IMG/VR virus record: IMGVR_UViG_3300024999_000047
Strand: one strand, 5' to 3'
Source of the DNA: an uncultured virus (IMG/VR IMGVR_UViG_3300024999_000047)
Lineage: Duplodnaviria > Heunggongvirae > Uroviricota > Caudoviricetes
DNA length: 64,000 bases
Positions 8,197 to 27,395 of this stretch are shown here, piece after piece. The stretch's first letter is position 1. The number at the start of each line of letters is the position of its first letter. The position numbers and the translations under genes are program-made. Below the pieces are notes generated by a model, which saw only the letters and a program-made list of their open reading frames with translations, was not told the DNA's origin and did not search any database.

Positions 8197-8634
8197 ATGA
8201 CTATTTCTTATGATTTAATTTTTCAGAAGTTTATGCATGAAATTAATGATTTTGATTTAACATCTTTAAATGAAGAACAAATGTTAATAGAAAATAAATT
8301 AACTCTATCTAAAGCAGTGTCTTTATTTAAAAAATGTAAGCAATCATTAACTAGAGATGATGAAGATGAAGAATTTACAAATGACTTAACAGAAGAAGAA
8401 CAATGGATAATTGCAGATTATATGAGAAAAGTTTGGTTAGATGAAAAAATAAATAATGGTGAATTGTTAAAATTAAGATTGACAGATAAAGATTTTAAAA
8501 CTTTTAGTCCTGCTGATTTATTAGGGACTATGAGTAAATTAAAATCAATTTATGACAAAGAATTAAAATTAAAAGTTAATGATTATCTATATGATGGTTA
8601 TTTATACTCTAAGTTTTATAAATCAGGTGGTTAG
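8197..8634 (+). CDS. Putative head-tail adaptor
   Basis: Size, synteny and DFKTFSPA motif. Confidence 0.6.
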   Translation: MTISYDLIFQKFMHEINDFDLTSLNEEQMLIENKLTLSKAVSLFKKCKQSLTRDDEDEEFTNDLTEEEQWIIADYMRKVWLDEKINNGELLKLRLTDKDFKTFSPADLLGTMSKLKSIYDKELKLKVNDYLYDGYLYSKFYKSGG

Positions 8635-13981: not shown

Positions 13982-14320
13982 ATGATTGACAAAGAAAAAA
14001 CAGCATTAGAAAAACAATCAAAGCCAATTGAAATAAAAATTAAACAAAAATATTCTCCACTTGTTTTAGAAATACAAAAAAAACTTAATCAAATTAAAAT
14101 TAATGATAATCCATTAGAAATAAATGGTTTATATAATGAAGAAACAAAAAATGCAATTATTAAATTGCAAGAAATTACTGATTTTGAACCAAATGGAGTT
14201 ATTGATCAAAATTTAATATTTAGATTAAATGAAATTATAGAAAATCCAATTATAAATGATTATAATAAAAGCAAAACATTTGCAATTTTATATAGCAAAT
14301 ATAAAGGAAATAATAAGTAA
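13982..14320 (+). CDS. Peptidoglycan-binding domain protein (PG_binding_1-like)
   Basis: VLEIQKKLN...INGLYNEETKNAIIKLQ...NGVID. Confidence 0.65.
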   Translation: MIDKEKTALEKQSKPIEIKIKQKYSPLVLEIQKKLNQIKINDNPLEINGLYNEETKNAIIKLQEITDFEPNGVIDQNLIFRLNEIIENPIINDYNKSKTFAILYSKYKGNNK

Positions 14321-14345
14321 TATAATTATATGGATAAATAGAGAT

Positions 14346-14431
14346 AAATAGGGATAGGTAGGAGTAATTAACCTACTGATAAGAGCCTCACCTCTTCCCT
14401 ATTTTTATTTTTGTGAGAAAAGAAAGTGAGG
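14346..14431 (+). promoter_or_regulatory. Putative structured RNA leader, copy 1 (three stems; loop pairs with RBS)
   Basis: P1 AAATAGGGA/TCCCTATTT; P2 GTAGG-agtaattaa-CCTAC; P3 loop CCTCAC is complementary to GTGAGG at 14426-14431. Confidence 0.65.
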
Positions 14432-14437
14432 TATAAT

Positions 14438-15391
14438 ATGTTACTAACAAAAGAAGTTGAAATGATTTGTAAAACAAGAAAGAAATATTATATTGAGAAA
14501 AGATATGATTGGGAATATCTAAAAATAATTATTGTTAAATTAGAAGATTTGCCAAAAGGTAGTCATCAAATGGTAAAAGTTTTATGTGATTATTGCTCAG
14601 AAAATGGTAAAGAAACAATTGTTGAAAAACCATATTATGCATATTTAAATCAAAAGAAAAAATCACAAATTGATAAAGATTGTTGCGATGATTGTTGGCA
14701 TTTAAAATTAGCAGAAACTATGAATATTAGATATGGAAATAATAATGCTTCTAATATTAAAATGTTTCAAGATAAAAGAATCGAAACTTTTTTAGATAAT
14801 TTTGGTACAGATAATCCTATGAAGGTAAAGGAAGTAGTTTTAAAAGGGAAACAAACCAATTTAGATAAATATGGCGTTGACCATAAAATGAAATTAGAAG
14901 GTGAATATAATAAAAGAATTATAAAAATAAGAGAAACTATGTATCAAAATGGCACTGGCATAAAATCAACTCAACAAATATATTTACATAAATTATTAGG
15001 TGGAGAATTAAATTATCCATTTGGTAAATGTTTACTAGATATAGCATTTCCAGAAGATAAAATTTATATTGAATACGATGGTTCAGGTCATGATTTGAAT
15101 GTTATATTAGGGAATATAACTGAAGAAGAAAAAAAGAAAAAAGAATTAAAAAGATTTTATTTTATGAAAAATAATAATTGGAAAATGATTCGTATTGTTT
15201 CTACAAAAGATAAATTGCCTAATAATAAAATATTAAGATATTTATTTAATTTAGCTTGTTATCATTTACAAAATGGGCATGGTTATTTTGAAATAAATAT
15301 TGATAAAGGTATTATAAAATATAATAATGAAGAAATGAAAATTAATTTTTGTAAATTAAAAAAGATTAATAAAAAATCAATTTCTGCTTAA
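14438..15391 (+). CDS. Homing-endonuclease-like protein (Cys-rich region plus Vsr/DUF559-like nuclease)
   Basis: CDYC and CCDDC; TNLDKYGVD-type repeats; LDIAFPEDKIYIEYDG. Confidence 0.7.
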   Translation: MLLTKEVEMICKTRKKYYIEKRYDWEYLKIIIVKLEDLPKGSHQMVKVLCDYCSENGKETIVEKPYYAYLNQKKKSQIDKDCCDDCWHLKLAETMNIRYGNNNASNIKMFQDKRIETFLDNFGTDNPMKVKEVVLKGKQTNLDKYGVDHKMKLEGEYNKRIIKIRETMYQNGTGIKSTQQIYLHKLLGGELNYPFGKCLLDIAFPEDKIYIEYDGSGHDLNVILGNITEEEKKKKELKRFYFMKNNNWKMIRIVSTKDKLPNNKILRYLFNLACYHLQNGHGYFEINIDKGIIKYNNEEMKINFCKLKKINKKSISA

Positions 15392-15593
15392 TTTTTAGTA
15401 ATATTTATAGTTTGATACTTCTCCATACATATTTATATTAGTATTTTTTACAAATATCATAATCAAATTTGGTTTTATAATAATCAATACAATAAACACA
15501 CACGCACACACATCAATCCCCTCACACAACATTTTCATTCATTTATCATCCAACAATTTAAATACAATTTGAATACAAAACGGAGGTGATATA

Positions 15594-16061
15594 TTGTCTT
15601 CACCCATAGCAAGAATTACATCTGATAAAAAATTAAAATTAAAAGGAAATCTATATACAACACAAGATGCTTATGATTACACAACACAGTTTGATGATGC
15701 TTATCAGTTTGATGATACTTACCAAATAGACGATAATGCAGAAATTTTTACATTATTTAATTATTTATTAGGAATTGAAAATACTTCAACACAAGTTGAT
15801 AAATTTTATATTGATAATAGAGGTAATTTAGTTACTCCAGAAGTTTATACAATTTGGCAAGGATTTGATGGAAGTGAAAATATTGATACTACAATTGAAT
15901 TAAATACTGAACATAGTATTGATTCAAGTTTAGGAACGGAAGAATTTATTTCATATTTATTTGGTGGATTAACAGTTGAAGATATTTCTATAAATAAATT
16001 TAAAATATTATCAAATAAAAAGTTGTTAGTTAATGAAGTTTTAGAAAGTCAAATTTTGTAA
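15594..16061 (+). CDS. Acidic repeat protein, probably virion-associated
   Basis: GGAGGTG plus TTG; QFDDAYQFDDTYQIDD repeats and internal duplication. Confidence 0.6.
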   Translation: MSSPIARITSDKKLKLKGNLYTTQDAYDYTTQFDDAYQFDDTYQIDDNAEIFTLFNYLLGIENTSTQVDKFYIDNRGNLVTPEVYTIWQGFDGSENIDTTIELNTEHSIDSSLGTEEFISYLFGGLTVEDISINKFKILSNKKLLVNEVLESQIL

Positions 16062-16159
16062 ATTATAATTAAGCAATGTTCTATCACAATTTTAGAAAAT
16101 AAAACTCTTTAAAATTAAGGGTTTATAAATTAGTAAAATAATTTAAGGAGGTTAATTAC

Positions 16160-17125
16160 ATGGCGATTTTTCCTTTCGATGATATTTTAACAACATTTAA
16201 AAATGGAACATCAAGAGCATTAAGAGTTGTTACTGAAAATCTAATAACAGGTGGATATTCCCCTGCTAATTTAACAATGCAAAATGCAGTAACAGCAAAT
16301 GGTAATGGTACAACATTAAATGTAAATGAATATGCAACAGCAGTATTAGAAATTAGAGGTACTTTTTCAGCAACTATTAATTTTGAATGTAGTATTGATG
16401 GTACAAATTGGTATCCTGTTTTAGCAACAAAAAATGATGGAATAATTAGTAGTAGTTGTTCTACGGCAGGGTTATATGAAATTAAGGTTGCTGCTTGGAA
16501 ATCTATACGTGCAAGAGTTAGTGGTTATGTGAGTGGCAATGTAACTGTTGTTGGGAAGGTTAGTCCGTTGGTTAATGCGGAAAAGAGTATGCAACTAACT
16601 GGTAGTTTACCTTCGGGAAATGAGCATGTTGGGCAGGTAGGGTATACGCTTAAAAAAGTGGCTACTAACTTTACTCGTCCGTCTGACACAACACCGTATA
16701 CCGTAGGCGACGCTATCACAAACAGCACATCTGCCCCAGTAGTGTTTCAATTGGATTTAGGTGCTTTGGGTGCGGTAGCAGGGCAAGCGGTAGAGGTAAG
16801 AAAAATAGCGGTAATATCTAGTGCAAAACAAGCAATTTTACCGCTTATGAATATCTATCTTTCAAATGTAACCTTTACAGCAACAAACGACAACTCTGCT
16901 CTCGATATTGCTGACGAAGTTATGCAAGCAGGGGGAGCATGGTTTAACACAGATATCCAAAATTACACAGCAAGTAATAGTCGTGTATCACAACAAAATA
17001 TTTCAATCCCCATGACTCTTGCTGATGCTGACACAAAACTATATGGCATACTTCAAGATACAATAGGTTATACCCCTGCCAGTGGCGAGGTATTTACTAT
17101 TGTTGCTTGGATTGCATTGTTGTAG
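16160..17125 (+). CDS. Two-domain virion accessory protein with a junction at MQLTGS
   Basis: Strong RBS; beta-rich N-domain (FECSIDGTNW); second domain begins after the shared site at 16588-16606. Confidence 0.6.
   Translation: MAIFPFDDILTTFKNGTSRALRVVTENLITGGYSPANLTMQNAVTANGNGTTLNVNEYATAVLEIRGTFSATINFECSIDGTNWYPVLATKNDGIISSSCSTAGLYEIKVAAWKSIRARVSGYVSGNVTVVGKVSPLVNAEKSMQLTGSLPSGNEHVGQVGYTLKKVATNFTRPSDTTPYTVGDAITNSTSAPVVFQLDLGALGAVAGQAVEVRKIAVISSAKQAILPLMNIYLSNVTFTATNDNSALDIADEVMQAGGAWFNTDIQNYTASNSRVSQQNISIPMTLADADTKLYGILQDTIGYTPASGEVFTIVAWIALL
16588..16606 (+). repeat. Cassette left site L1, identical to 52187-52205
   Basis: TATGCAACTAACTGGTAGT, 19/19 identical in two otherwise dissimilar genes and in the same reading frame. 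Confidence 0.85.
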
Positions 17126-17130
17126 GTGAT

Positions 17131-17862
17131 ATGATGTATCCATTTTTTAGTAAGAAAGGGCAAAGAGGTATTGTAAAACGTGGTTTGTTTGCTTATTATA
17201 ACGCATTGCGACAATACTCTACAAACCAAGTAGGTCAGAGACTAATTGATTTTTCTGGAAATAATTACCGAGGTCAATCTGGAAGTGTCCCTGTCTCTGA
17301 CCCAAATGACCCAATATTTACATCCCAGGGTTTAAGTTTTGATGGTGTTGATGATTATATTAATGTCGGTAATATAGGTAAGTTAATGCGTACTTGTCAG
17401 ATTGTTTTCTATACGCCGACAGAGATAAACAAAACAAGTAGTAGTAGTGCTTTGATTAGTATTGAGGGAAATGATAATGGTTATATTGCCATTGGTCTTA
17501 CTACATCCCTCATAGCAGATGAAATAATTACTATATTAGATATTAGTGGCGGTAGAAGTGGGTGGTGCAGTTCGTCAGGAAATATCCCGATAGGTTGGCA
17601 TTTATTGGAGGTTGTATGGTTAGATAGTAAATATCGTATAATTTTGGATGGTATAGAAAAACCGATAACTACAGCAAATGCGCCAAGAGTTTTAAATGCT
17701 ACAAATTTAAGACTAGGCAGCGTTCCATCGGGAGGTTCTTATTTTAATGGCAAACAAGCAGAAATACTTCTGTATGAACGCACACTAACAAACTCTGAAT
17801 TAGCACAAAACAGAGCATTTATCAAAGCAGAATGTAAAAATTATGGCATTACAATTAATTAA
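17131..17862 (+). CDS. LamG/concanavalin-A-like lectin domain protein
   Basis: LSFDGVDDYI...GWHLLEVVW...IILDG...YFNGKQAEILLYERTLT. Confidence 0.75.
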   Translation: MMYPFFSKKGQRGIVKRGLFAYYNALRQYSTNQVGQRLIDFSGNNYRGQSGSVPVSDPNDPIFTSQGLSFDGVDDYINVGNIGKLMRTCQIVFYTPTEINKTSSSSALISIEGNDNGYIAIGLTTSLIADEIITILDISGGRSGWCSSSGNIPIGWHLLEVVWLDSKYRIILDGIEKPITTANAPRVLNATNLRLGSVPSGGSYFNGKQAEILLYERTLTNSELAQNRAFIKAECKNYGITIN

Positions 17863-17878
17863 AAGGGGGGCTTTAAAA

Positions 17879-18133
17879 ATGGTGGTTTTATTTCAAAGTA
17901 AAAATGATGCAGATAACACTTGCAAGCAAATTGAAATTCTGCCTAGCGGAATTTATGTTTGGTATTCTGAGGATGGAATAAATAATATGATACAGTATGC
18001 ACAAAGCGTAGATGGTCGCTGTGCCATGTCTGCTAATTTTACTTCTGAGGATATTGCTGTTTGGGGTGCTTACCCTGCCGTTACGCTTATGACTGGTTTA
18101 CCTGCTGATTGGCAATATCCCACATTAGGTTAA
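17879..18133 (+). CDS. Small hypothetical protein, last gene of cassette 1
   Basis: GGGGG RBS then ATG at 17879; stop codon abuts site R1. Confidence 0.6.
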   Translation: MVVLFQSKNDADNTCKQIEILPSGIYVWYSEDGINNMIQYAQSVDGRCAMSANFTSEDIAVWGAYPAVTLMTGLPADWQYPTLG

Positions 18134-18157
18134 CCAACTAACTAAAATGCGTTAGTT
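18134..18157 (+). repeat. Cassette right site R1 (palindromic)
   Basis: CC-AACTAAC-taaaatgc-GTTAGTT: 7-bp arms with an 8-bp spacer; matches 53877-53900. Confidence 0.8.
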
Positions 18158-18373
18158 ATATAACTCAATAATCTATAATCTATAATTAAATAATATAAAA
18201 ACACTATTTATACATATCAAATATTAAATATAATTAACACAATTAATTAAATATAATTATATTCACACTAATATCTAAAACACAATAAGGATTACTTCAT
18301 ACTAATGCATAATAAAAATGCATCAACATGGATTAATCCTTATTTTTTTAGTTTTATTGTTATAAAACTGAGA

Positions 18374-18442
18374 TTTTGTCATGATTTTGGGATTTTTAAA
18401 GTGTTGATTTATAGGGGTTTAGTGGATGTGTGATTTTTGATA
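18374..18442 (+). repeat. 69-bp dispersed repeat, copy 1
   Basis: Ungapped 55/69 match (manual count) to 54049-54117; core AAAGTGTTGATTTATARGGGTTTAG. Confidence 0.8.
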
Positions 18443-18506
18443 AATTTGTGATTTTCATGGAATGTAAGATTAGAATAAGTAAATATAATTTTAAGGAGAT
18501 GTTAGT

Positions 18507-19088
18507 ATTTCAAATGTATTAAAATTGGTATCCCCTATCGGAGTTTCAGTAAACCATTATTTGAAGCCACGTAGTTTTTTGATTTATAAAAATGGTAAAC
18601 CTGTCCCTCAAGTTACGATGTATGAAACTAAAGAAGCAAAAGATTACAAGAAAAAATTTATTAAACACATTAAAGAACAAATTAATCTTCAAGGATGGGA
18701 AAAATCAGATAATAAGTATCAGAAATATTTCGTTGATTGTACCTTCTTTTTCCCACGTATAGATATGGATAGTAATAACATGTATAAATTACTTCTGGAT
18801 TCCCTGACAGAATCAGAAGTTTGCTGGATTGACGATACGCAATCATGTGAAAGGACACAAGGTATATTCTATGATTCTGAAAATCCTAGAATTATAATTG
18901 AAATACGTCCTGTCGATTTTGTAGGTATCTTCCCTACTAACGAACAATTACAAATATTTAAAAGTAATTGCATCACATGTAGTAGATATAGAGATGGTAG
19001 ATGTAGTATTTTAGTAAAAAGTTTAGAAGGGAGAATTCAAAAAGAGATTAATGATTTAACATGTGGTAAATTTAAACCTAAAAAATAA
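18507..19088 (+). CDS. rusA: RusA-family Holliday junction resolvase
   Basis: SVNHY...DMDSNNMYKLLLDSL...WIDD...YDSENPRIII. Probable ATT start after AAGGAG. Confidence 0.8.
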   Translation: MSNVLKLVSPIGVSVNHYLKPRSFLIYKNGKPVPQVTMYETKEAKDYKKKFIKHIKEQINLQGWEKSDNKYQKYFVDCTFFFPRIDMDSNNMYKLLLDSLTESEVCWIDDTQSCERTQGIFYDSENPRIIIEIRPVDFVGIFPTNEQLQIFKSNCITCSRYRDGRCSILVKSLEGRIQKEINDLTCGKFKPKK

Positions 19089-19112
19089 TTATTAAGATAG
19101 TAAATATAATTG

Positions 19113-19206
19113 TCAGAGGATAGTGATTGCAACATGACAAGTAGTTTTCCTAGACTACTTCCTCTGATTTATTTTTTATTTAGGAAAAGAAAATATACTA
19201 TAGGAG
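19113..19206 (+). promoter_or_regulatory. Putative structured RNA leader, copy 2
   Basis: P1 TCAGAGGA/TCCTCTGA; P3 AAGTAGT-tttcctag-ACTACTT; loop is complementary to TAGGAAA (19181) and TAGGA of the RBS (19201). Confidence 0.65.
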
Positions 19207-19216
19207 GTAATAAATA

Positions 19217-20175
19217 ATGAAAAATGGCAAATGGTCTAAAGAAGAAGAACAATTTTTAATAGAAAATGTTAGTATTTTAAGTGTTTTTGAATTAGCAAAG
19301 GAATTATCTAGAACAGAAAATATGATAAGAAGTAAAAAGTTAAGAATGAATTTAAAAAGTGGTAAAAGAAATGTTTTTTCAGAAGAGGAAATAATTATTA
19401 TAATAAACTGGTATAAAGAACATCCTAATGAATTAAAATTAGATGAATTATCTACAATTATGAATAGAGACAAACATGAGATTTGTCGCAAAGCAAAAAG
19501 ACTTAATATAACAAATGTAAATAGAAAAGTATTAACAGAAGATATTATTAATGAAAGAAAAGAGATTAAAAAACAAAATCATATTCGTACAGTTAATCAA
19601 TTTATTAAATTAGTAAAAACAAATCATCCTAAAGGAATGTTAGGTAAAAAACATACATATGAAACAAAGCAAATATTATCTGAAAAATATAAATTAGCAT
19701 GGCAAAATAAAACACAAGAACAAAAAGAAAAAATTTATATTAATTTAAGAAAAGGAAGAGAAATATCTAAAAATATAGTCAAATCAAAATATTCAAAAAC
19801 TGGTGGTTATAGGAAAGATTTGGATAAATATTTTAGAAGTAAATGGGAGGCTAATATAGCACGTATTTTTAATTATTCAAATATTATATGGGAATTTGAA
19901 CCAAAAAGATTTGAATTTGATGATAAAGTAATGGAATAGAAAGTTACTTACCAGATTTTTATCTTCCAAAATTAAATGTTTGGATAGAAGTGAAAGGTTG
20001 GATGAAAGAAGTAGATATTAAAAGATTAGAAAAATTTAAGAAATATTATCCTAAAGAATATGATAATTTAGTAATTATTGAAGAAAAACTATATATAAAA
20101 TTGGAAAAAGAATTTAAATATAAAATTACTGAATGGGAATTTAAAAATAATAAAAACAATAATAAAGCAAGTTAG
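19217..20175 (+). pseudogene. Frameshifted homing-endonuclease-like gene (Myb-like, NUMOD3-like, PD-(D/E)XK)
   Basis: GKKHTYETKQILS and FRSKWEANIAR. The -1 frame at about 19927 gives SNGIESYLPDFYLPKLNVWIEVKGWM, which joins ORF 19990-20175. Confidence 0.8.
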
Positions 20176-20176
20176 C

Positions 20177-20260
20177 AATGGAGAAAGATTAAAGTTAGCA
20201 TTTGCACCATTTCAGTATGATAAATTAAACCCTAGAGTAGAAATGTTACTGGAGTATTAA
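20177..20260 (+). pseudogene. Relic C-terminus of a second RusA-like gene
   Basis: NGERLKLAFAPFQYDKLNPRVEMLLEY resembles the RusA segment YDSENPRIIIEI; no start codon or RBS. Confidence 0.45.
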
Positions 20261-20338
20261 AATTTAGTAACAAAATGTAAATATAATTAATATACTATTT
20301 TAACAATAAAACAAAAATAAAACGGAGGAATATATTAC

Positions 20339-20980
20339 ATGTCAAACAAACTTTTAACACTCTCATCTCTCAAAAGTTTAGATTCTAAAAATTTCAATGA
20401 AACAATTCAAATTTTTTTATCAGATGGTTCTACTCTACTCCTAGACAAAAAGTTTAGAAAAACTACTATAGAATTAATATTAAACAGATTATCAGAAATA
20501 CATAAAATTGTTCAAAATGATAAATCATTAGAGAATTTAGATTTAGAGAAATTCACTCAATTGCTACTAATTCTTAATTTTACTTCATTAAAGAGTTTAG
20601 AGTTAAATTCTTTACAAGAAGAATTAGTAGTAATGAATTTATTAGTAGATAATGAATTACTAGAAGAAATTATATTAAAATTTGATGAGAATTGTAAAGA
20701 ACAAATTGAATATTTTAATAAACAAACTTTTTTAATTTTACAAAAAAGATTAGATGCAATGAGTCAACAGGAAGAATTTATGAAGATATTGAATGAAGAA
20801 ATTGAAAAACAGAAATTGTTAGAATTAGGTGAGAATGTGGATTTGAAATTAAACGAAGATACTGAAATGATGGATATAATTAATAAGATTGATGATAATT
20901 TAGGTGATGATATAAATAATGAATCTACAGAAGAAACTGATGAATTAGTTAATAAAATAGAGATTACTGATACTGAATAG
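20339..20980 (+). CDS. Putative tail assembly chaperone
   Basis: GGAGG RBS, acidic tail, tail-module position. Confidence 0.5.
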   Translation: MSNKLLTLSSLKSLDSKNFNETIQIFLSDGSTLLLDKKFRKTTIELILNRLSEIHKIVQNDKSLENLDLEKFTQLLLILNFTSLKSLELNSLQEELVVMNLLVDNELLEEIILKFDENCKEQIEYFNKQTFLILQKRLDAMSQQEEFMKILNEEIEKQKLLELGENVDLKLNEDTEMMDIINKIDDNLGDDINNESTEETDELVNKIEITDTE

Positions 20981-21229
20981 TAAAACTATAGAATAATACA
21001 ATAACAGATTGTAAATATAATTGATAATTAATTATAATTAATAGAGTTAGGATTTATATGTATACCATATATTTTATATTTTGTTTGCTATCATATTTCT
21101 CCTGCTCTATTTAATTATAAATTTCACAGATTGATATGAATTTATTAGAATTAAATATTTTCAATAGATTAAAGGCATCTCATAAATAAAGAGGTGTCTT
21201 TTCTTGTGTTGAAATACAACACAAATTTT

Positions 21230-21361
21230 ACTAGATGCTTAATGGAGTAATTACCCATTAAAAAAGAGAGTTGTCCTTTCTCTCTGCATCTAGTTTTTAT
21301 ATTTTATAAAACAAAATAAAAAAGGATGAATGTTAGTGATTTAAAATAAAATGAAAAGGAC
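21230..21361 (+). promoter_or_regulatory. Putative structured RNA leader, copy 3
   Basis: P1 ACTAGATGC/GCATCTAGT; P2 TTAATGG-agtaattac-CCATTAA; P3 AGAGAG-ttgtccttt-CTCTCT; loop pairs with AAAGGAT (21321) and AAAGGAC (21355). Confidence 0.65.
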
Positions 21362-21371
21362 GTGGTATGAA

Positions 21372-23189
21372 ATGTTAGTGAAATGTATGGTTGACAGAAA
21401 AACTTTTGAAAACAAACCAAGTGGAGATCAATCTAAAGGTATCCAATTTAGAATGGCACAAACAGAAATTGAAATTGAAGAATTAGCTAATTTATTAAGT
21501 AATGGAGCAACTTTTAAACCTGCATTACTCAATGGTAGAAAAAGTATAGATTGGCTTACTCAACAATTATTTGCTTTAGATTTTGATGGTGGTACTACTA
21601 TTGAAAAAGAATTAAATAATTGTAGAGAATTAAATATATTGCCTATTTTTGGATATAAAACATTTTCTTATACTCAATATAAAGAGAAATTTAGATTAGT
21701 ATTTTGTAGTAATATAGTAATAACTAATGTAGAAACAAGAAATAAATTTCAAAAATTATTAATTGCATTATTTCCTACTAGTGACTCTGTAACATTTGAT
21801 CCTACAAGGTTATTCTTTGGTGGAAAAGAATTAATTAATTGTGATTATAATAATAGAATAAATATTAATAATATTATGATTAAATTTAAAGATATATTAA
21901 AAAGTATAGTTGATTCATCTACTTTGAGGTTAATCAATACTAATACAATAAACTCTTCTTCTATTAGTATGCAGAAAGCTCAGAATCCCCGTCCTGTAAG
22001 GGTTTACGAGGAGTTTTCCCATTTTAATGCAATAAAAAATTTAGATGTAATTTTAATGAAACATCTTCTTCAAATAAATGGTGATAAAGTTATTTGTGTA
22101 AATAAACAAGAAGTTTATGATTTTATTAATGGAATAGATTTATGTGAATTTACAAATATACATAGTATGGTAAATTGTATATTACCTGATCATCAAGATG
22201 ATACTCCTTCGGCACATATTTATACAACTGATAGTGGAACACAAATATATAAATGTTTTGGTTGCGATGCGAAATATACAATAATATCTTTAGTAGAAAA
22301 ACTAGCAAAATGTAAAAGAATTAAAGCAATTGAATTTATAAAAAAAGTATATAATATCGAATTACAACAAACAGAATGGCAAAAACAACAATTAGAAATA
22401 CTTGATATAAATATTGAATTATTATTATCTGATGAATTTAAAGAAATATATCCTCAACTCCATTCTTTAATAAGAACAAGAAAAAATAATCTTATTGCAT
22501 TAAATAACTATGCAAAAATTAATATTAAAGATGAAGATTTTTGTGTAGATGAAAATCCATTATTTTTTGCTTCTCTGACTAAAATTATGGATATTTTTGG
22601 TTCAAAAGATAGAACTAAAGTATCACAGAGTATTACATTATTTGCTTTATTAAGTTTATTAAATAAAATACCACATGAGAAATTACCTGAAGAAACTTTT
22701 AACAAAGCAAAACATATTGCAGCAAAATATGGTCTTACTAAATTAGTTAATTTTTATAGTATTGATCAATATGGAGTGGATTCTTTAGAAGAAAGCAATA
22801 AAATTGCTAAAACATTAAAAGATAACAATATATCTTTAAAAGGTATTTCTAGGGAATATTTATTAAGAACATTTGGTAAAGAATTAACAAATAAAATATA
22901 TCCTCAATATATTTATGAGAATGAATTAGGCACTTCTGAAAAATCTAATGAAAATAGTAGTAAAATAGCATCTTATATTTTAGATGAAATAGAGAAAAAA
23001 GGTTATGTTTTAGAAAAAGAATTAAAAATTGATAATATAACAGAAACACAATGGAAACGTAGTATTCAAGAAATATTGGATGGCTATGGATTAATTAAAA
23101 TAACTGCCAATAAAGAAATAAAGTTGAAATATAATATTGATGTTGCAGAAAGAAGTTATCCTAAGATTATTGTTAAAGGAGGTGAATAA
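21372..23189 (+). CDS. AEP-like primase/Rep protein with CHC2-type zinc finger, paralog 1
   Basis: FALDFDGG...YKTFS...KFRLVF; CILPDH...PSA...YKCFGC; aligns by eye with 56734-58674. Confidence 0.65.
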   Translation: MLVKCMVDRKTFENKPSGDQSKGIQFRMAQTEIEIEELANLLSNGATFKPALLNGRKSIDWLTQQLFALDFDGGTTIEKELNNCRELNILPIFGYKTFSYTQYKEKFRLVFCSNIVITNVETRNKFQKLLIALFPTSDSVTFDPTRLFFGGKELINCDYNNRININNIMIKFKDILKSIVDSSTLRLINTNTINSSSISMQKAQNPRPVRVYEEFSHFNAIKNLDVILMKHLLQINGDKVICVNKQEVYDFINGIDLCEFTNIHSMVNCILPDHQDDTPSAHIYTTDSGTQIYKCFGCDAKYTIISLVEKLAKCKRIKAIEFIKKVYNIELQQTEWQKQQLEILDINIELLLSDEFKEIYPQLHSLIRTRKNNLIALNNYAKINIKDEDFCVDENPLFFASLTKIMDIFGSKDRTKVSQSITLFALLSLLNKIPHEKLPEETFNKAKHIAAKYGLTKLVNFYSIDQYGVDSLEESNKIAKTLKDNNISLKGISREYLLRTFGKELTNKIYPQYIYENELGTSEKSNENSSKIASYILDEIEKKGYVLEKELKIDNITETQWKRSIQEILDGYGLIKITANKEIKLKYNIDVAERSYPKIIVKGGE

Positions 23190-23190
23190 A

Positions 23191-23628
23191 ATCGCCTCTT
23201 TAGCAGACCAATTAAAAAATATTGAAGCACAGATAAAAAAGAAAATACAATCCTCATTAAAAAAGGAAGTATCAGAAACGAGTAAAGATATTATGGTAGA
23301 TAAATTAGATAGTGTAGTTTATTCTCAATATACACCTACTCAATATTCAAGGTCTTATGATGATGGAGGTTTAGCAGATGAAAAAAATATAGAAACAAAA
23401 ATGATTGATGATACTACTTTGAGAATAGAAAATATTAGAAAAGATGAAGAATCGGGAAGATTAGTAACTCCCATCGTGGAGACAGGAAAAGGTTATTATA
23501 CTGAGTGGTTGGATGAACTTATTGGTGAAAGACCGTTTATAAAAGCAACAGCAGAAGAATTAAGAAAAGGCAAGGCTAGAGATGCATTAAAACGTGGTCT
23601 TATCAGGGAAGGATTAAATGTAAAATAG
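23191..23628 (+). CDS. HK97 gp10-like tail completion/neck protein
   Basis: VY..YTPTQYSR...IVETG...RPFIK; AAGGAGGTG followed by a probable ATC start. Confidence 0.6.
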   Translation: MASLADQLKNIEAQIKKKIQSSLKKEVSETSKDIMVDKLDSVVYSQYTPTQYSRSYDDGGLADEKNIETKMIDDTTLRIENIRKDEESGRLVTPIVETGKGYYTEWLDELIGERPFIKATAEELRKGKARDALKRGLIREGLNVK

Positions 23629-23709
23629 CATCTTACCTTCCTACTTTTTAAAATAAAATATAATCAAAAAATAAATTTTATAAATCTCAAAAATATTTTC
23701 ACAAATTCC

Positions 23710-23738
23710 TTGACAAATTGTAAATATAATTGTATACT
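23710..23738 (+). promoter_or_regulatory. SigA-type promoter for HU
   Basis: TTGACA-17-TATACT. Confidence 0.7.
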
Positions 23739-23810
23739 ACAAATAACCTCAGAAAACAAACAACTGAGGAAATAAAAATAATATAAATTAAAAGGAGAAA
23801 TGATTTTATT

Positions 23811-24140
23811 ATGAAAAGAGAAGAAATGATCACAAGTATGTCCGAATTAGGGGAAATGACTAAAAAGTTAGCAGAACAAGCATTAGATGCATTTTTACTA
23901 AGTGTTGAGAAAGCATTAAGTAATGGAGAAGAAGTAAAATTAAATAACTACATAATTCTTACTCCAACTTTAAGGAAAGGTAGGAAAGGTCATAATCCGC
24001 AAGATATGACTGAAATTGAAATTGCTCCTAAAAACGTAGTAAAAGTAAAGTTAGGTAAGAAATGGAAAGATGCAGTTGTAGGTATTGAGATTGCGGAGAA
24101 GATTAAGAAAACAAGGAAGAAGAAAGATGTTGTTGAGTAG
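23811..24140 (+). CDS. hup: HU/IHF-family DNA-binding protein
   Basis: TKKLAEQALDAF...ALSNGEEVKL...RKGRKGHNPQ...IEI. Confidence 0.85.
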   Translation: MKREEMITSMSELGEMTKKLAEQALDAFLLSVEKALSNGEEVKLNNYIILTPTLRKGRKGHNPQDMTEIEIAPKNVVKVKLGKKWKDAVVGIEIAEKIKKTRKKKDVVE

Positions 24141-24339
24141 GAATATGAATATGGAAGAATAATTAATACATACTTAGTATAGACTAAGAGATTCTATTTC
24201 ATATTAATAAAAATATTTAGTTTATTGGGTTAATATAATTATATAATCATTAAATATATAATAGTTTAACTAAATATTGATTGGTGATTGGTGATTGGTA
24301 TGTTGGGATTTTAATTTACAATTGAATAGAAATATTTAA

Positions 24340-24368
24340 AAGAGCAGACATAAATCTGCTCTCTTTTT
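24340..24368 (+). terminator. Intrinsic terminator
   Basis: AGAGCAGA-cataaa-TCTGCTCT followed by a T run. Confidence 0.6.
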
Positions 24369-24472
24369 ATTTTATTGTAGATTAATATATAAAGTTTAGT
24401 TTATTACATAATTTATTACAGAACAATGACTATCACATTTATTTGTGGTGGTCATTTTTGTGTGATGATATA

Positions 24473-24583
24473 AAAACAGTCTAGGGTCGCTCCCGAAAGT
24501 AGTAATCCTTAACTATTGACTGTTTTATCACTCTTTTTATAAGGATGAGATGGATAAGGAAACAAAATAAAATATTAAAGGAG
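24473..24583 (+). promoter_or_regulatory. Putative structured RNA leader, copy 4
   Basis: P1 AAAACAGTC/GACTGTTTT; P2 GGG-tcgct-CCC; P3 AGTAGT-aatcctta-ACTATT; loop pairs with TAAGGAT (24540), TAAGGA (24555) and the RBS AAGGA (24578). Confidence 0.65.
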
Positions 24584-24588
24584 ATGTT

Positions 24589-26367
24589 TTGATGGCAATA
24601 AAGTATACAGATGAAGAGATAATTGAAAAGTATAAAGATTTTGCAAGTAGATTAGGTAAAACTCCAACACAAGATGATGTAAACAATGAATCAAAAAGTA
24701 ACAAATATTTTCCAAGTGGTAAAGTTTTGTTTAGTAGATTTGGTGGTAAAACAAAACTTGATGAGGTATGTGGTTTAAAATTAAATCATATATATTTTAC
24801 TGATAATGAATTATTAGATAAACTTAAAAACTTTTATGATAAAAATGGTTTCCCTATTAAAAAAGAAATTAATAAAGATGAAGATATGCCAAATGCAGAA
24901 GTATATCGTATTAGATTTGGAAGTTTTAAAGATGCAATAATTAAAGCAAATATCCCAATACCTAAAAATAAAGAAAATAGTTTAAAAAATAATAAAGTAT
25001 ATTTAGAAGATGATATTTTATTAGAACAACTTAAACAAGTTTTAACAACACATGGTATTATTCCAATTTCTAAATTTAAAGAATATGGTTTATATAGTAT
25101 GGTTGTATATAGAAATAGATTTGGAACATATAAAGAAATCTTAAATATGTTAAATATACATATACCAGAAGATATAGAAAGTAAATATTTTTCTAAATTT
25201 AAAAATAAATCAAATGAAGAATTAATAATTTATCTACAAGATTACTATGATAAATATGGATTACCAACTACTAGAGATTTAAAAAATAATAATGATTATC
25301 CAAGTGATTATATTTATAGAGAAAGATTTGGTAGTTTTGAGAATGCATTATTAATTGCCAATATTGAAATTCCGCAAGATAAAGAATGGTTATATAATAG
25401 AGAAAGTATGGATACGGATATTATATTAAAAAATTTAAAAGAATTTATTTATAATAATTATACAGAAAAAGATATATTACCTGGAATGAAAGAATTATTT
25501 ATTTTATGTGATATTCCAAGTCAATCAGTTTTATTTAAAAAATTTTATAGTATTCAAGAATTATATAGTCAAATAAATGTAGATTATTATAAACATAATA
25601 ATCATGCTATAAAATTAGATATGATTAAAAAATATAAAGAATTATATTCAATATTAGGTAGAACACCACATAGTAGAGATATTGAGTATTATTCTAGAAA
25701 TAAAGAAGAATTTTATTCAATGGGTGCATATGAATTTCATTTTGGAAGTGTTTATCAACTTCAAGTTTATTGTGATTTTATACCTACTGTAATTGGAAGA
25801 CATAAATCAAGGAGTGATTTAATAGAAGATTTGCAAGAATTATATGAAAGATTAGGTAGAATTCCTACTCAAAAAGATGTTAATATGTGTGAATGGATGG
25901 CATCTAGTTCTAGTTATAATATAGAATTTGGTGGATTTATTGAATCATTGAAAATTTCTGGTATTATAAATGGAAAACAAAACAGTAAATGTAGTATTAC
26001 TCCACAAGGCAATTATTGTAGATCATCATATGAATTTGATTTTTGTATAATGTTAGAAAATAAAGGATTAAGTTTTAGACAAGAAGATCATTATTCAAAA
26101 TACATAAAAGATTTTACTAGAAGATTTAGATTTGATTACATTGTTAATATAAATAATATTGATTATTTTATAGAAATATTCGGTATGATGGAGCATAAAT
26201 GGTATAGTGATAAAGCAGATTATAAAATTAAATTATGTGAAGATAATAATTTAATTTTGATTGATTTATATAAAAATGACTTTAAGAAAAGTGATATAGA
26301 AACATTGTATAATTTGTTGTTAAATAAGATTGATAATATAAATAATAATTTAAAGGATGTGTCTTAA
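24589..26367 (+). CDS. Homing-endonuclease-associated-repeat protein with C-terminal PD-(D/E)XK-like nuclease
   Basis: About seven LG.TP...Y..RFGS repeats; RSSYEFDF...RFDY...FIEIFG; TAATG overlap with the recombinase gene. Confidence 0.7.
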   Translation: MMAIKYTDEEIIEKYKDFASRLGKTPTQDDVNNESKSNKYFPSGKVLFSRFGGKTKLDEVCGLKLNHIYFTDNELLDKLKNFYDKNGFPIKKEINKDEDMPNAEVYRIRFGSFKDAIIKANIPIPKNKENSLKNNKVYLEDDILLEQLKQVLTTHGIIPISKFKEYGLYSMVVYRNRFGTYKEILNMLNIHIPEDIESKYFSKFKNKSNEELIIYLQDYYDKYGLPTTRDLKNNNDYPSDYIYRERFGSFENALLIANIEIPQDKEWLYNRESMDTDIILKNLKEFIYNNYTEKDILPGMKELFILCDIPSQSVLFKKFYSIQELYSQINVDYYKHNNHAIKLDMIKKYKELYSILGRTPHSRDIEYYSRNKEEFYSMGAYEFHFGSVYQLQVYCDFIPTVIGRHKSRSDLIEDLQELYERLGRIPTQKDVNMCEWMASSSSYNIEFGGFIESLKISGIINGKQNSKCSITPQGNYCRSSYEFDFCIMLENKGLSFRQEDHYSKYIKDFTRRFRFDYIVNINNIDYFIEIFGMMEHKWYSDKADYKIKLCEDNNLILIDLYKNDFKKSDIETLYNLLLNKIDNINNNLKDVS

Positions 26368-27395
26368 TGGGTAGAAAAACAGAACAACATAGTATAGTTA
26401 CACCTGAATTATGGGAACAAGTTTCAAATGAAAATAAGGAATTAATGAATGAATTTTTGGATTACTGTAGAGGTAAAGACATGGCATCTGGTAGTATAAA
26501 AGGATACTGCAATGATATTGAAATTTGTTTAGTTTGGAATTTACAATATAATAAGAATAAATTTTATGTTGATTTTAATAAAAGAGACATTCTTAAATAT
26601 CAAAATTGGCTTGTCAATACTCAAAATCTAAGTTCTAATAGAGTTAGAAGATTAAAAGCTGCTATTAGTAGTATGTCAAACTACATAGAATCAATACTAG
26701 ATGACGTTTATGAAGGATATCGTAATATAGTAAATAAAATCCCTGCTCCACCAAAGCAAGAAGTTAGAGATAAAACAGTATTAAGTGATGAACAAGTTGA
26801 TTATTTATTAGATTATTTAGTTAAAAAAGAAAAATATCAACAAGCATGTGCATTAGCTTTGGCTGTTGCAAGTGGTTCAAGAAAACAAGAATTATTGAGA
26901 TTTAAAGTAAGTTTTTTTACTGATGAAAATATTAAATATGGTGCTTTATATAAAACACCTGAAAAGATCAAAACTAAAGGACGTAGTTCTAGGGGTAAGA
27001 TGCTCTATCGTTACGTTTTGGTTAGTAAATTTAAACCATATTTTGATTTATGGATGAAACAACGTGAAGAATTAGGTATTCAAGGAGAAGAATTATTTTG
27101 GAATAAAAGAAATGGTGTTTGGAAACCAGGAGATATTTCATTACTTAATTCTTGGGCAAATACATTCTCTAACATACTTGGTATCTTCTATTACTTTCAT
27201 TCAGCCCGTCACAAATTTTGTACGGATTTATGTAAAGCAAATATTCCAGCAGATGTAATTAAGGATGTGATTGGATGGCAGTCTACCTCGATGATATCAA
27301 TATATAATGACCAAGAAGTTGATGATGAATTAGGTAAATATTTTGATTCTTCTGGAATTAAACAAGTTGAAAATAAATCATTAGGTGATTTGTAA
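26367..27395 (+). CDS. Tyrosine recombinase
   Basis: Catalytic pattern GSRKQELL (R), KTK (K), HSARH (HxxR), IGW, IY (Y); directly upstream of the tape measure gene. Confidence 0.9.
   Translation: MGRKTEQHSIVTPELWEQVSNENKELMNEFLDYCRGKDMASGSIKGYCNDIEICLVWNLQYNKNKFYVDFNKRDILKYQNWLVNTQNLSSNRVRRLKAAISSMSNYIESILDDVYEGYRNIVNKIPAPPKQEVRDKTVLSDEQVDYLLDYLVKKEKYQQACALALAVASGSRKQELLRFKVSFFTDENIKYGALYKTPEKIKTKGRSSRGKMLYRYVLVSKFKPYFDLWMKQREELGIQGEELFWNKRNGVWKPGDISLLNSWANTFSNILGIFYYFHSARHKFCTDLCKANIPADVIKDVIGWQSTSMISIYNDQEVDDELGKYFDSSGIKQVENKSLGDL

What the first reader, a model, noticed from the sequence alone, without database searches (positions are those of the whole stretch)
14346..24583. Recurrent three-stem RNA leader whose loop covaries with the downstream RBS, in front of four mobile genes
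Seen: leaders at 14346, 19113, 21230 and 24473 share a closing stem P1, a small hairpin P2 (loop AGTAATTA in two copies) and a hairpin P3, followed by a U-rich tract. Primary sequences differ but pairing is kept. The P3 loops (CCTCAC, TTTCCTA, GTCCTTT, ATCCTTA) each match their own downstream sequence (GTGAGG, TAGGAAA, AAAGGAC, TAAGGAT), which always occurs at least twice: a proximal copy and one at the RBS. The downstream genes are three endonuclease-like genes and one primase-like gene. Known: T-even homing endonuclease genes such as I-TevI are repressed by RBS-occluding hairpins. Inference: this is a pseudoknotted cis-regulatory switch or attenuator that travels with selfish genes. I do not recognise it as a named RNA family.
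Basis: partly seen in the sequence, partly recalled or inferred. Interest (0 to 1): 0.82.

Follow-up and report, generated by a model that had tools for sequence, protein, structure and literature searches.

The report
Anti-RBS junction RNA leaders on phage nucleases
Four genes of this phage, mostly selfish nuclease genes, are each preceded by a small three-armed RNA whose one loop can base-pair with that gene's own ribosome-binding site; one copy belongs to a catalogued but functionally untested RNA family (int-alpA) and the other three to an uncatalogued sister form.

Summary
All four leaders fold as three-way junctions (P1, P2, P3) followed by a U-rich tract. Each P3 loop is complementary to two or three sites downstream, and the last site lies at the ribosome-binding site.

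This exceeds chance. A structure descriptor finds 9 hits against a mean of 2.3 in shuffles. Across 46 related elements, a loop matches its own downstream region better than in any of 10,000 re-pairings.

The "unnamed family" claim is only partly right. Copy 4 (24473) matches Rfam int-alpA (RF02996) at 35.4 bits against a cut-off of 35.8. Its 18-nt core is identical in at least 114 viral contigs, and 8 of 20 of these tested pass the cut-off. Copies 1-3 form a sister variant ("type A") with no Rfam match. My covariance model recovers copies 2 and 3, and type A occurs in dozens of other phage contigs.

In this phage group, 12 of 19 elements precede homing-endonuclease-type genes. Promoters often abut P1, so the unit looks like a promoter-leader-gene cassette.

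The most likely function is translational throttling by loop-RBS pairing, as in the P1 c4 and P4 CI antisense RNAs. No experiment or RNA data supports this yet.

This scan found the same motif before on other DNA. I class it as a new variant of a known kind.

The parts
14346..14404 (+). Leader copy 1 (type A three-way junction): P1 14346-14354/14396-14404, P2 14357-14377 (loop AGUAAUUAA), J23 GAUA, P3 14382-14395
   Evidence: used to train model R1, where it scores 80.5 bits; covariation in the type A alignment
14386..14391 (+). P3 loop of copy 1, CCUCAC
   Evidence: complementary to 14413-14417 and 14426-14431
14413..14417 (+). Proximal target of copy 1, GUGAG, directly after the U-rich tail
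14426..14431 (+). Distal target of copy 1, GUGAGG, which is the Shine-Dalgarno, 6 nt before ATG 14438
14438..15391 (+). Gene after copy 1: homing-endonuclease-like (DUF7487; PHROG 12131, E 1.3e-31)
19112..19168 (+). Leader copy 2 (type A, weak P2): P1 19112-19120/19160-19168, P3 19140-19159; TATAAT at 19105-19110 lies 1 nt upstream
   Evidence: R1 24.4 bits, E 4.4e-3, not in training; near-identical copy in relative G004
19146..19153 (+). P3 loop of copy 2, UUUCCUAG
19181..19187 (+). Proximal target of copy 2, UAGGAAA
19201..19207 (+). Distal target of copy 2, UAGGAGG, at the Shine-Dalgarno, 9 nt before ATG 19217
19217..19939 (+). Gene after copy 2: unknown; weak Myb-like N-terminus, PHROG 323 'D5-like regulator' (E 1.8e-12)
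21204..21224 (+). Hairpin directly upstream of copy 3, conserved in relatives; terminator-like
21230..21294 (+). Leader copy 3 (type A): P1 21230-21238/21286-21294, P2 21239-21261 (loop AGUAAUUAC), P3 21266-21284
   Evidence: R1 32.6 bits, E 3.2e-5, not in training
21271..21279 (+). P3 loop of copy 3, UUGUCCUUU
21321..21329 (+). Proximal target of copy 3, AAAGGAUGA (6 Watson-Crick pairs, then 2 G-U pairs and 1 A-U pair)
21355..21361 (+). Distal target of copy 3, AAAGGAC, at the Shine-Dalgarno position, 10 nt before ATG 21372
21372..23189 (+). Gene after copy 3: primase-like (DnaG zinc ribbon; PHROG 25531). The start is probably 21372; the listed ORF starts at 21351
24425..24456 (+). Terminator-like hairpin upstream of copy 4
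24473..24526 (+). Leader copy 4 (int-alpA type): P1 24473-24481/24518-24526, J12 UA, P2 24484-24494, J23 GAAA, P3 24499-24516
   Evidence: RF02996 35.4 bits, full-length match; 18-nt core shared with at least 114 viral contigs
24504..24511 (+). P3 loop of copy 4, AAUCCUUA
24540..24546 (+). Proximal target of copy 4, UAAGGAU
24555..24560 (+). Second target of copy 4, UAAGGA
24578..24583 (+). Shine-Dalgarno AAGGAG of the gene after copy 4; 5 nt (AAGGA) complementary to the loop
24592..26367 (+). Gene after copy 4: six 'homing endonuclease associated' HNH_repeat units (E 4.6e-50)
26367..27395 (+). Tyrosine integrase directly after that gene, matching the usual neighbourhood of int-alpA

Best explanation
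Each element is the 5' leader of a small self-contained expression unit: promoter, then leader RNA, then gene.

The RNA folds into a three-way junction. P1 closes it, P2 and the junction nucleotides form a conserved scaffold, and P3 presents a 6-9 nt loop. That loop is an address-specific antisense sequence. It can pair with a site just after the structure (proximal) and with a site at or beside the ribosome-binding site (distal).

Pairing with the distal site would block 30S binding and keep translation of the downstream gene low. That gene is usually a potentially toxic homing endonuclease. The proximal copy competes for the same loop as a decoy or pseudoknot partner and so sets how strong the block is. 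In AT-rich phages such as this one, P1 plus the U tract may also stop a share of transcripts.

Shown: the fold, its covariation, the own-loop/own-target specificity, the position of the distal site at the start codon, and the gene association.

Inferred: that pairing happens in the RNA, that it represses translation, and what the proximal site does.

Copy 4 is an int-alpA RNA. Copies 1-3 are an uncatalogued sister variant.
For: **Fold and covariation**
- In 36 int-alpA-type sequences, 87.7% of cells are paired against 59.4% in shuffles. 173 cells are changed on both sides against 54.8, with 0 of 500 shuffles as high. Slid controls give 34-53%.
- In the 12-sequence type A alignment, 11 of 15 pairs carry compensatory changes.
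- Model R1 finds copies 3 and 2, which were not in its training set, at E 3.2e-5 and 4.4e-3 in 367,574 bases.

**Loop-target specificity**
- In 46 elements, the longest Watson-Crick run between a loop and its own downstream 90 nt averages 5.5, against 4.05 for other elements' downstream regions.
- 0 of 10,000 re-pairings reach this.
- At least two sites occur in 30 of 46 own pairings against 24% of non-self pairings.

**Position of the distal site**
- A site of at least 5 nt ends 2-16 nt before the first start codon in 37 of 56 elements, against 11% with foreign loops.
- Targets need not be SD-like. GTTGACA, TTCGGT and CTCAGTTC each occur twice in Bacteroidota-type contigs.

**Same locus, different leaders**
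- Before orthologous primase-like genes there are three different leaders, each with matching targets: AAUCCUUA with TAAGGA, and UACUCUC with GAGAGTA and AGAGAGA.
- The copy-1 homologue in G003 changed both its loop (AAUCCUC) and both targets (GAGGAT, GGAGGAT).

**The Rfam consensus shows the same logic**
- The int-alpA consensus carries loop CCuUua and a downstream uaAgGG.

**Promoters abut P1**
- Of 15 elements (from 65) with a sigma-70 match of at least 9 of 12, the -10 box ends 0-6 nt before P1 in 11. One is a perfect TTGACA-17-TATAAT.
- TAnnTTTG ends 3-6 nt before P1 in 26 of 33 type A loci, against about 2% expected.

**Downstream genes**
- 12 of 19 elements in this phage group precede genes with homing-endonuclease-type domains.
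Against: - There is no RNA evidence and no experiment.
- Copy 1's minimum-energy fold is not the three-way junction.
- Copy 2's P2 is weak.
- At the SD of copy 4 only 5 nt match the loop, and its better sites lie upstream.
- 19 of 56 elements lack a Watson-Crick site of at least 5 nt in the RBS window. Some of these are parsing misses, for example copy 1.
- The test for an RNA-specific signature is not significant: 19 G-U-compatible against 9 incompatible transitions, p = 0.087.
- In cis the proximal site is transcribed first and could occupy the loop. That would leave the RBS free, so the sign of the effect is not settled.
- Elements in the statistics are partly related to each other.
- Promoters are consensus matches only.
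Confidence: 0.6

Rival explanations
1. Trans-acting antisense RNA of the c4/CI kind. The junction RNA is released as a small RNA, by termination at the U tract or by processing. It then acts in trans on longer transcripts of the same unit, or of a co-infecting relative. It pairs with both targets and causes translational block and premature termination. This would be an 'immunity' between like cassettes.
For: - Rfam's C4 model has the same architecture: a closing stem, a small hairpin and a hairpin with a long antisense loop. It was seen on P4 at 8420-8507.
- The U-rich tail lies between P1 and the proximal site in all four window copies.
- The four loops in one genome all differ, as orthogonal regulators would.
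- Rfam types int-alpA as 'Gene; sRNA'.
Against: - Many int-alpA-type members have no U-rich tail.
- No C4 match appears at E up to 10 in the window.
- No target copy lies upstream, unlike a1/b1 or seqA (read).
- There is no RNA data.
Confidence: 0.15
2. Factor-sensing switch. The conserved junction and P2 bind a protein or small ligand. Binding decides whether the loop sits on the proximal site (gene on) or on the RBS (gene off).
For: - The 18-nt stretch of J12, P2 and J23 is identical in at least 114 viral contigs, while P1 and P3 vary freely.
- Type A keeps GGGA-UAG...AGUAAUUA...GAUAAG invariant or nearly so, while the P2 stem covaries.
- There are two alternative partners for one loop.
Against: - No candidate ligand or protein is known.
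- P2 differs between the subtypes and within Rfam's consensus, which argues against one universal binding pocket.
- Sequence conservation could equally reflect tertiary folding.
Confidence: 0.15
3. Plain intrinsic terminators or insulators between genes. The loop-target matches would be a by-product of purine-rich RBS sequences and pyrimidine-rich loops.
For: - P1 is followed by a T-rich tract in all four copies.
- Three of the four loops contain CCU and the RBS contains AGG.
- The generic descriptor alone has a background of about 2.3 hits per window.
Against: - Loops and targets covary in sequences unrelated to the SD.
- Own pairings beat non-self pairings: 0 of 10,000 permutations.
- Copies 3 and 4 already have a separate terminator-like hairpin just upstream.
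- Many family members lack a U tail.
- Promoters abut P1.
Confidence: 0.05
4. DNA-level repeats. One inverted and two direct copies of a 6-7 bp site would serve as operators for a DNA-binding protein, for example the nuclease itself.
For: - Homing endonucleases bind specific DNA.
- I-TevI autorepression through an operator is mentioned in the T4 review (passages seen).
- The sites differ from gene to gene.
Against: - The inverted copy always sits in the loop of a covarying RNA hairpin, on the sense strand.
- The same arrangement precedes genes that are not DNA-binding nucleases: a glycosyltransferase and a tail tube gene.
- The same arrangement with the same sites precedes two different genes.
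- G-U-compatible differences outnumber incompatible ones 19 to 9, though this is not significant.
Confidence: 0.05

Closest known systems
int-alpA RNA motif (Rfam RF02996; from the comparative-genomics survey of Weinberg et al. 2017, PMC5737381)
   Same: - Three-way junction with J12 UA(G) and J23 GAAA(A), a P3 loop containing CCUU, a U-rich tail and a downstream AAGG.
- Copy 4 aligns over the full model, positions 1-71.
- Copy 4 shares its 18-nt core with sequences that score 40-52 bits.
- An integrase gene lies nearby.
   Different: - Copy 4 scores 0.4 bits below the curated cut-off.
- Copies 1-3 are not detected at E up to 10. They have a different conserved P2 loop (AGUAAUUA) and J23 (GAUA).
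- Here the downstream genes are homing-endonuclease-type, not alpA.
- I found no published function. The main text of PMC5737381 does not mention the motif (0 occurrences of 'alpA') and its supplement could not be read. Two other papers only list the name or use the words for a gene order.
C4 antisense RNA of phages P1/P7 and CI RNA of P4 (Rfam RF01695, clan CL00128)
   Same: - A closing stem, a small hairpin and a hairpin whose loop is antisense to target sites present in more than one copy, one of them at an RBS.
- Encoded upstream of its own targets on the same strand.
- Specificity changes by co-variation of loop and targets. This mechanism is recalled from the c4/CI literature; the architecture was seen.
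   Different: - No sequence or model match.
- P1 is far shorter here, 5-9 bp against 17 bp.
- There is one antisense loop, not two segments.
- Both targets lie downstream; none lies upstream.
- The regulated genes are nucleases, not antirepressor or replication operons.
- Processing by RNase P is unknown here.
RBS-sequestering hairpins of T-even homing endonuclease genes (I-TevI, I-TevII, I-TevIII, segB, mobE)
   Same: Translation of a phage homing endonuclease is limited by RNA structure that hides the RBS (passages of PMC2988022).
   Different: - In the T-even cases, a simple local hairpin contains the RBS, and a late promoter inside it frees the RBS.
- Here a distant loop of a conserved three-way junction would pair with the RBS.
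- Here a second, decoy-like copy exists.
- Here the promoter lies upstream of the whole structure.

Membership tests
int-alpA RNA (RF02996) | Score at or above Rfam's gathering cut-off (35.8 bits) | tested here: inconclusive
   - Copy 4 scores 35.4 bits, E 2.3e-4 in 11 kb, with a full-length match. It gets no hit at the gathering threshold.
- Another int-alpA-type copy in relative G004 scores 48.4 bits; the primase leader of G002/G005 scores 32.4.
- Copies 1-3 get no hit at E up to 10.
int-alpA RNA (RF02996) | Three-way junction with conserved J12 (C)UAG, P2 hairpin and J23 GAAA(A) | tested here: met
   - Copy 4 has CUAG-GGUCGCUCCC-GAAA.
- This exact 18-mer occurs in at least 114 viral contigs.
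- 8 of 20 of those tested pass Rfam's cut-off.
- Copies 1-3 keep UA(G) and GAUA/AAAA but have another P2.
int-alpA RNA (RF02996) | Neighbourhood of integrase or alpA genes. This feature is recalled from the family's name and description, not from a call. | tested here: met
   A tyrosine integrase at 26367-27395 is the second gene after copy 4. No integrase lies next to copies 1-3.
C4 / CI antisense RNA (RF01695) | Match to the covariance model | tested here: not met
   No C4 hit at E up to 10 in 14000-25000 or in the small windows around copies 1 and 4. The positive control, P4, scores 74.9 bits.
C4 / CI antisense RNA (RF01695) | Antisense loop complementary to repeated targets, one at an RBS, on the same transcript | tested here: met
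   This meets the test by analogy only.
C4 / CI antisense RNA (RF01695) | Excision from the precursor by RNase P, and action in trans | not testable with these tools
   No RNA run holds the sequence.
T-even type RBS hairpin of homing endonuclease genes | Local hairpin that contains the RBS, with a late promoter inside it | tested here: not met
   - Folds of the whole leaders place the RBS outside the junction, in weak local structure.
- Promoter-like sites lie upstream of P1, not between the junction and the RBS.
Intrinsic terminator | G+C-rich stem directly followed by a U run | tested here: inconclusive
   - P1 plus a T-rich tail is present in all four copies.
- P1 closes a branched structure and has few G-C pairs.
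- The consensus scan did not call these sites.
- Many family members lack the tail.

The most novel reading that the evidence does not exclude
The junction RNAs are a host-independent, programmable 'governor' carried by selfish phage genes. The cassette has three parts: a promoter, a 5'-terminal scaffold RNA, and an exchangeable 6-9 nt address loop with two matching sites.

It would work both in cis and as a released small RNA, like c4 or CI. Cassettes of the same address would then silence each other in mixed infections, giving an immunity system among homing endonucleases. The invariant core would recruit a universal host factor.

This would give the orphan int-alpA family and its uncatalogued sister form a function, and would link them mechanistically to the classical antisense immunity RNAs.
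Probability: 0.2. Interest if true: 0.75.

Novelty: new variant of a known kind. Interest (0 to 1): 0.55.

Why it matters
Free-standing homing endonucleases are among the commonest selfish genes of phages. How their expression is kept tolerable is known only for a few T-even cases.

Here a single RNA design precedes such genes in phages of very different hosts. Its scaffold is conserved and its address loop is freely re-written. The promoter type changes with the host (TATAAT or TAnnTTTG), and the targets follow the local rules of translation start.

If loop-RBS pairing is confirmed:
- An orphan Rfam family gains a function.
- An uncatalogued sister family is added.
- A compact, orthogonal translational repressor module becomes available for testing with simple compensatory mutations.

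Tried and rejected
- **Rfam at gathering threshold.** No hit in the window.
- **tRNA/tmRNA scan.** None found.
- **Megablast of 14000-25000 against cultured phages.** No match.
- **blastn of a type A locus and of copy 1 against cultured phages.** No match, or only chance-level matches with E of 0.6 or more. No cultured host system was found for type A.
- **The window's own assembly.** Not held. G001 is the same phage and adds little.
- **RNA evidence.** No RNA holder was listed for the stretch, only groundwater metagenome DNA runs.
- **P4 as a supposed int-alpA carrier (recalled).** No int-alpA hit at E up to 0.01 in X51522. Only C4, isrK and c4-a1b1 were found.
- **A shared promoter motif, TTTGTGTTGAAATA, upstream of copies 3 and 4.** 41 matches against 41.4 expected, so it was dropped.
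- **G-U against A-C transition test for RNA-level pairing.** 19 against 9, p = 0.087, not significant.
- **MAFFT alignment of all 14 elements of both types.** Not consistent with the structure, so the subtypes were aligned separately.
- **Hammerhead-like reading of the junction (GAAA in J23).** Rejected by eye, because the CUGAUGA core is absent.
- **Literature.** 'int-alpA' gave 2 papers, neither on function. 'C4 antisense RNA' together with 'homing endonuclease' gave 0 papers. Core sequences used as text terms gave only unrelated primer-like matches.
- **Supplement of PMC5737381.** Could not be read. It probably holds the original description of int-alpA and may already note a pseudoknot or SD pairing.
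- **Notes of this scan on this genome or sequence.** None.

Full report
**What is there**

Each has:
- a closing stem P1 of up to 9 bp
- a hairpin P2
- a purine-rich joining strand
- a hairpin P3 with a 6-9 nt loop
- the 3' strand of P1
- a T-rich tract

RNAfold returns this three-way junction as the minimum-energy fold for copies 2, 3 and 4 (z = -3.98, -5.17, -3.23). For copy 1 it prefers a different inner pairing (z = -2.29). The junction also persists when the whole leader up to the start codon is folded, again except for copy 1.

A strict structural descriptor finds 9 places on both strands of the window, including all four copies. The mean over 50 dinucleotide shuffles is 2.32 with a maximum of 6. 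Shape alone is therefore enriched but not decisive. A looser version of the descriptor had found three of the four copies.

**Identity**

At its curated thresholds, Rfam reports nothing in the window. With an E-value threshold, copy 4 matches int-alpA (RF02996) over the whole model. It scores 35.4 bits against a cut-off of 35.8, E 2.3e-4 in 11 kb.

The consensus printed has the same anatomy:
- P1
- UA(G)
- a short P2
- GAAAA
- P3 with loop AaaCCuUua
- a U-rich tail
- a conserved uaAgGG

That last element is complementary to the loop.

These contigs span all G+C contents. Of 20 such loci given to Rfam, 8 pass the int-alpA cut-off at 40-52 bits, and no other family matches them. In a phage 98% identical in the primase-like protein, another copy scores 48.4 bits. 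So copy 4 is an int-alpA RNA in all but 0.4 bits.

Copies 1-3 are not seen by RF02996 or any other Rfam model at E up to 10. They share a second conserved core, which I call type A: (G)GGA-UAG, a covarying P2 stem, loop AGUAAUUA(A/C), GAUAAG, P3, then CUUCCC.

- Patterns taken from copies 1 and 3 find 33 and 15 further viral stretches. Some of the 15 are coding-sequence false hits.
- In a 12-sequence alignment, RNAalifold predicts the same junction. 11 of 15 pairs have compensatory changes.
- A covariance model built from that alignment contains copy 1 but not copies 2 or 3. It finds copy 3 at 32.6 bits (E 3.2e-5) and copy 2 at 24.4 bits (E 4.4e-3) in 367,574 bases.
- The model does not find copy 4. 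It touches an int-alpA member only weakly, at 16.3 bits and E 0.53.

The two types share UA(G) in J12 and GA(A/U)A in J23, and the same overall design. I treat them as sister variants, not as one proven family.

**Covariation of the stems**

For 36 distinct int-alpA-type sequences anchored on the invariant core:
- P1 and P3 are 87.7% paired, against 59.4% after shuffling partners.
- 173 cells are changed on both sides, against 54.8. 0 of 500 shuffles reach this.
- Sliding the partner by 1-3 columns gives 34-53% paired.

The sequences are partly related, so these numbers overstate independence. The slid controls do keep relatedness.

**The loop and its targets**

This is the heart of the finding, and it generalises.

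In the window:
- CCUCAC faces GUGAG and GUGAGG.
- UUUCCUAG faces UAGGAAA and UAGGAGG.
- UUGUCCUUU faces AAAGGAU(GA) and AAAGGAC.
- AAUCCUUA faces UAAGGAU, UAAGGA and AAGGA.

The last site in each case lies at the Shine-Dalgarno.

At the orthologous place before the primase-like gene, relatives with 87% and 72% protein identity carry different leaders. Their loops and targets have changed together: AAUCCUUA with UAAGGA, and UACUCUC with GAGAGUA and AGAGAGA. The copy-1 homologue in the complete 166,652-bp relative has loop AAUCCUC with GAGGAU and GGAGGAU.

Statistics over the wider set:
- Over 46 distinct elements, the longest Watson-Crick run between a loop and its own downstream 90 nt averages 5.5. 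Against other elements' downstream regions it averages 4.05.
- Runs of 6 or more occur in 23 of 46 own pairings, against 6.8% of foreign ones.
- None of 10,000 re-pairings reaches the observed mean.
- Two or more sites occur in 30 of 46 own pairings against 24%.
- A site of at least 5 nt ends 2-16 nt before the first start codon in 37 of 56 elements, against 11% with foreign loops. This count misses copy 1 (loop mis-parsed) and the distal site of copy 3 (earlier ATG chosen), so it is conservative.

Targets are often not SD-like. Examples are CUGUG-AGG, AGCGA-GG and UACGG-GGG in enterobacterial-type members, and GUUGACA, UUCGGU and CUCAGUUC, each twice, in type A members of other contigs. The match is therefore an address, not merely anti-SD composition.

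A test for an RNA-specific signature compared differences that keep G-U pairing with those that make A-C mismatches. It gives 19 against 9, p = 0.087. This is suggestive only.

**Context**

Two independent kinds of promoter-like sites abut P1.
- Of 65 elements, 15 have a sigma-70 match of at least 9 of 12 in the 60 nt upstream. In 11 of these the -10 box ends 0-6 nt before P1. They include a perfect TTGACA-17-TATAAT before the copy-1 homologue of relative G004. Copy 2 itself has TATAAT 1 nt before P1.
- In 26 of 33 type A loci found with the copy-1 pattern, TAnnTTTG ends 3-6 nt before the GGGA of P1, against about 2% expected. These 33 loci comprise 20 distinct sequences. From recall, I recognise TAnnTTTG as the Bacteroidota -7 promoter motif.

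The RNA would thus begin at the base of P1. The unit is promoter, leader, gene. Copies 3 and 4 are instead preceded by separate terminator-like hairpins, which argues that the junction belongs to the downstream unit.

**Genes served**

In the window:
- Copy 1 precedes a homing-endonuclease-like gene (DUF7487; PHROG 12131, E 1.3e-31).
- Copy 2 precedes a protein of unknown role with a weak Myb-like N-terminus.
- Copy 3 precedes a primase-like protein with a DnaG zinc ribbon.
- Copy 4 precedes a protein of six 'homing endonuclease associated' repeats, followed by a tyrosine integrase.

Counting all 19 elements seen in the window and three relatives (orthologous copies included):
- 12 precede genes with GIY-YIG, HNH, NUMOD, DUF4379, DUF7487 or HNH_repeat hits
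- 1 more has only a sub-threshold HNH_repeat hit
- 1 precedes a TnpB gene
- 4 precede the primase-like orthologues
- 1 precedes the unknown gene

Among 36 N-terminal fragments downstream of int-alpA-type cores from other contigs:
- 6 show HNH_3 or NUMOD3
- 1 shows Bro-N
- 1 shows Rha
- 2 show HTH
- single cases show a glycosyltransferase, a tail tube protein and others
- most show nothing

The leader is modular. The copy-2 leader, with the same targets, precedes a GIY-YIG/NUMOD3 gene in G004 but the Myb-like gene here. "Associated with selfish and accessory genes" is supported. "Travels with a given gene" is not.

**Mechanism**

The best-supported reading is that the P3 loop pairs with the site at the RBS and throttles translation. 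The proximal copy acts as a competing partner.

The closest working analogues are the c4 RNA of P1/P7 and the CI RNA of P4. Rfam's C4 model, seen on P4 at 74.9 bits, has the same three-stem plan with a long antisense loop. From the literature as I recall it, its loop pairs with repeated targets, one at an RBS. The window's elements do not match that model, and their targets are both downstream. They therefore work like c4/CI without being members.

The T-even paradigm for homing endonucleases is a local RBS hairpin opened by an internal late promoter (passages of PMC2988022). It shares the purpose but not the design.

Still open:
- whether the RNA acts in cis, in trans after termination at the U tract, or both
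- whether the proximal site relieves or assists repression
- what the invariant core does

**Known or new**

This scan has met the motif before in two other genomes, and those reports reached the same identification. I had reached it independently.

In the open literature I could search, int-alpA appears only as a name in a list, or as a gene order. The main text of the discovery paper does not discuss it and its supplement was unreadable here. I cannot exclude that the loop/AAGG pairing was already drawn there.

Type A has no Rfam entry. I class the finding as a new variant of a known kind, with a testable function for an orphan family.

Noticed in passing
window 14363-14371 and 21246-21254: The conserved type A P2 loop is A-G-UAAUUA-A/C: a 6-nt palindrome inside a 9-nt loop. 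Two such RNAs could in principle kiss through it. The stems below it covary while the loop stays fixed.
   Followed up: no
window 21204-21224: The hairpin TTGTGTTGAAATACAACACAA just upstream of the primase-like gene's leader is conserved in relatives down to 72% protein identity, although the leader itself is replaced. As a 14-mer it does not recur in the window.
   Followed up: partly
window 21351-21374: The primase-like gene probably starts at ATG 21372, not at the listed 21351. Orthologues align from residue 8, and the SD-like AAAGGAC lies 10 nt before 21372.
   Followed up: partly
window about 57 kb (seen as G001:C1:8914-9059 and neighbours): A second, diverged copy of the primase-like gene (71-79% nucleotide identity over short stretches) lies elsewhere in the same phage.
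   Followed up: no
L032:10800-12027 (relative G004): A junction element with loop CUGCAA, matching UUGCAG just 5' of the SD, precedes a TnpB (IS605 OrfB / Cas12f-like) gene.
   Followed up: partly
L153, L155, L158, L163 and similar loci: Type A leaders in contigs of 33-43% G+C have targets with no SD character. The distal site ends 0-6 nt before the ATG, and TAnnTTTG lies directly upstream. This fits hosts that do not use SD pairing.
   Followed up: partly
L150 (Klebsiella phage ST846-OXA48phi9.2, MK416022, 33.0-33.4 kb): An int-alpA-type core sits inside the head-gene module of temperate Klebsiella phages. It lies between a Mu F-like gene and a 58-aa ORF, not near int or alpA.
   Followed up: partly
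window 24282-24303 and 24341-24362: A short tandem GGTGATT repeat and a bidirectional terminator-like hairpin lie between the HU-like gene (23811-24140) and copy 4.
   Followed up: no
window 26367-27395 and 27589-35001: A tyrosine integrase and a 2470-aa ORF lie in what relatives show to be a phage of about 167 kb with terminal repeats, from groundwater metagenomes.
   Followed up: no
L021:9762-9832 (G003 69232-69162, minus strand): An atypical relative: P1 UAGGGA closes one long hairpin whose loop UUCCUUAG matches UUAAGGAAGG at the RBS of an HNH-type gene. There is no clear P2.
   Followed up: no
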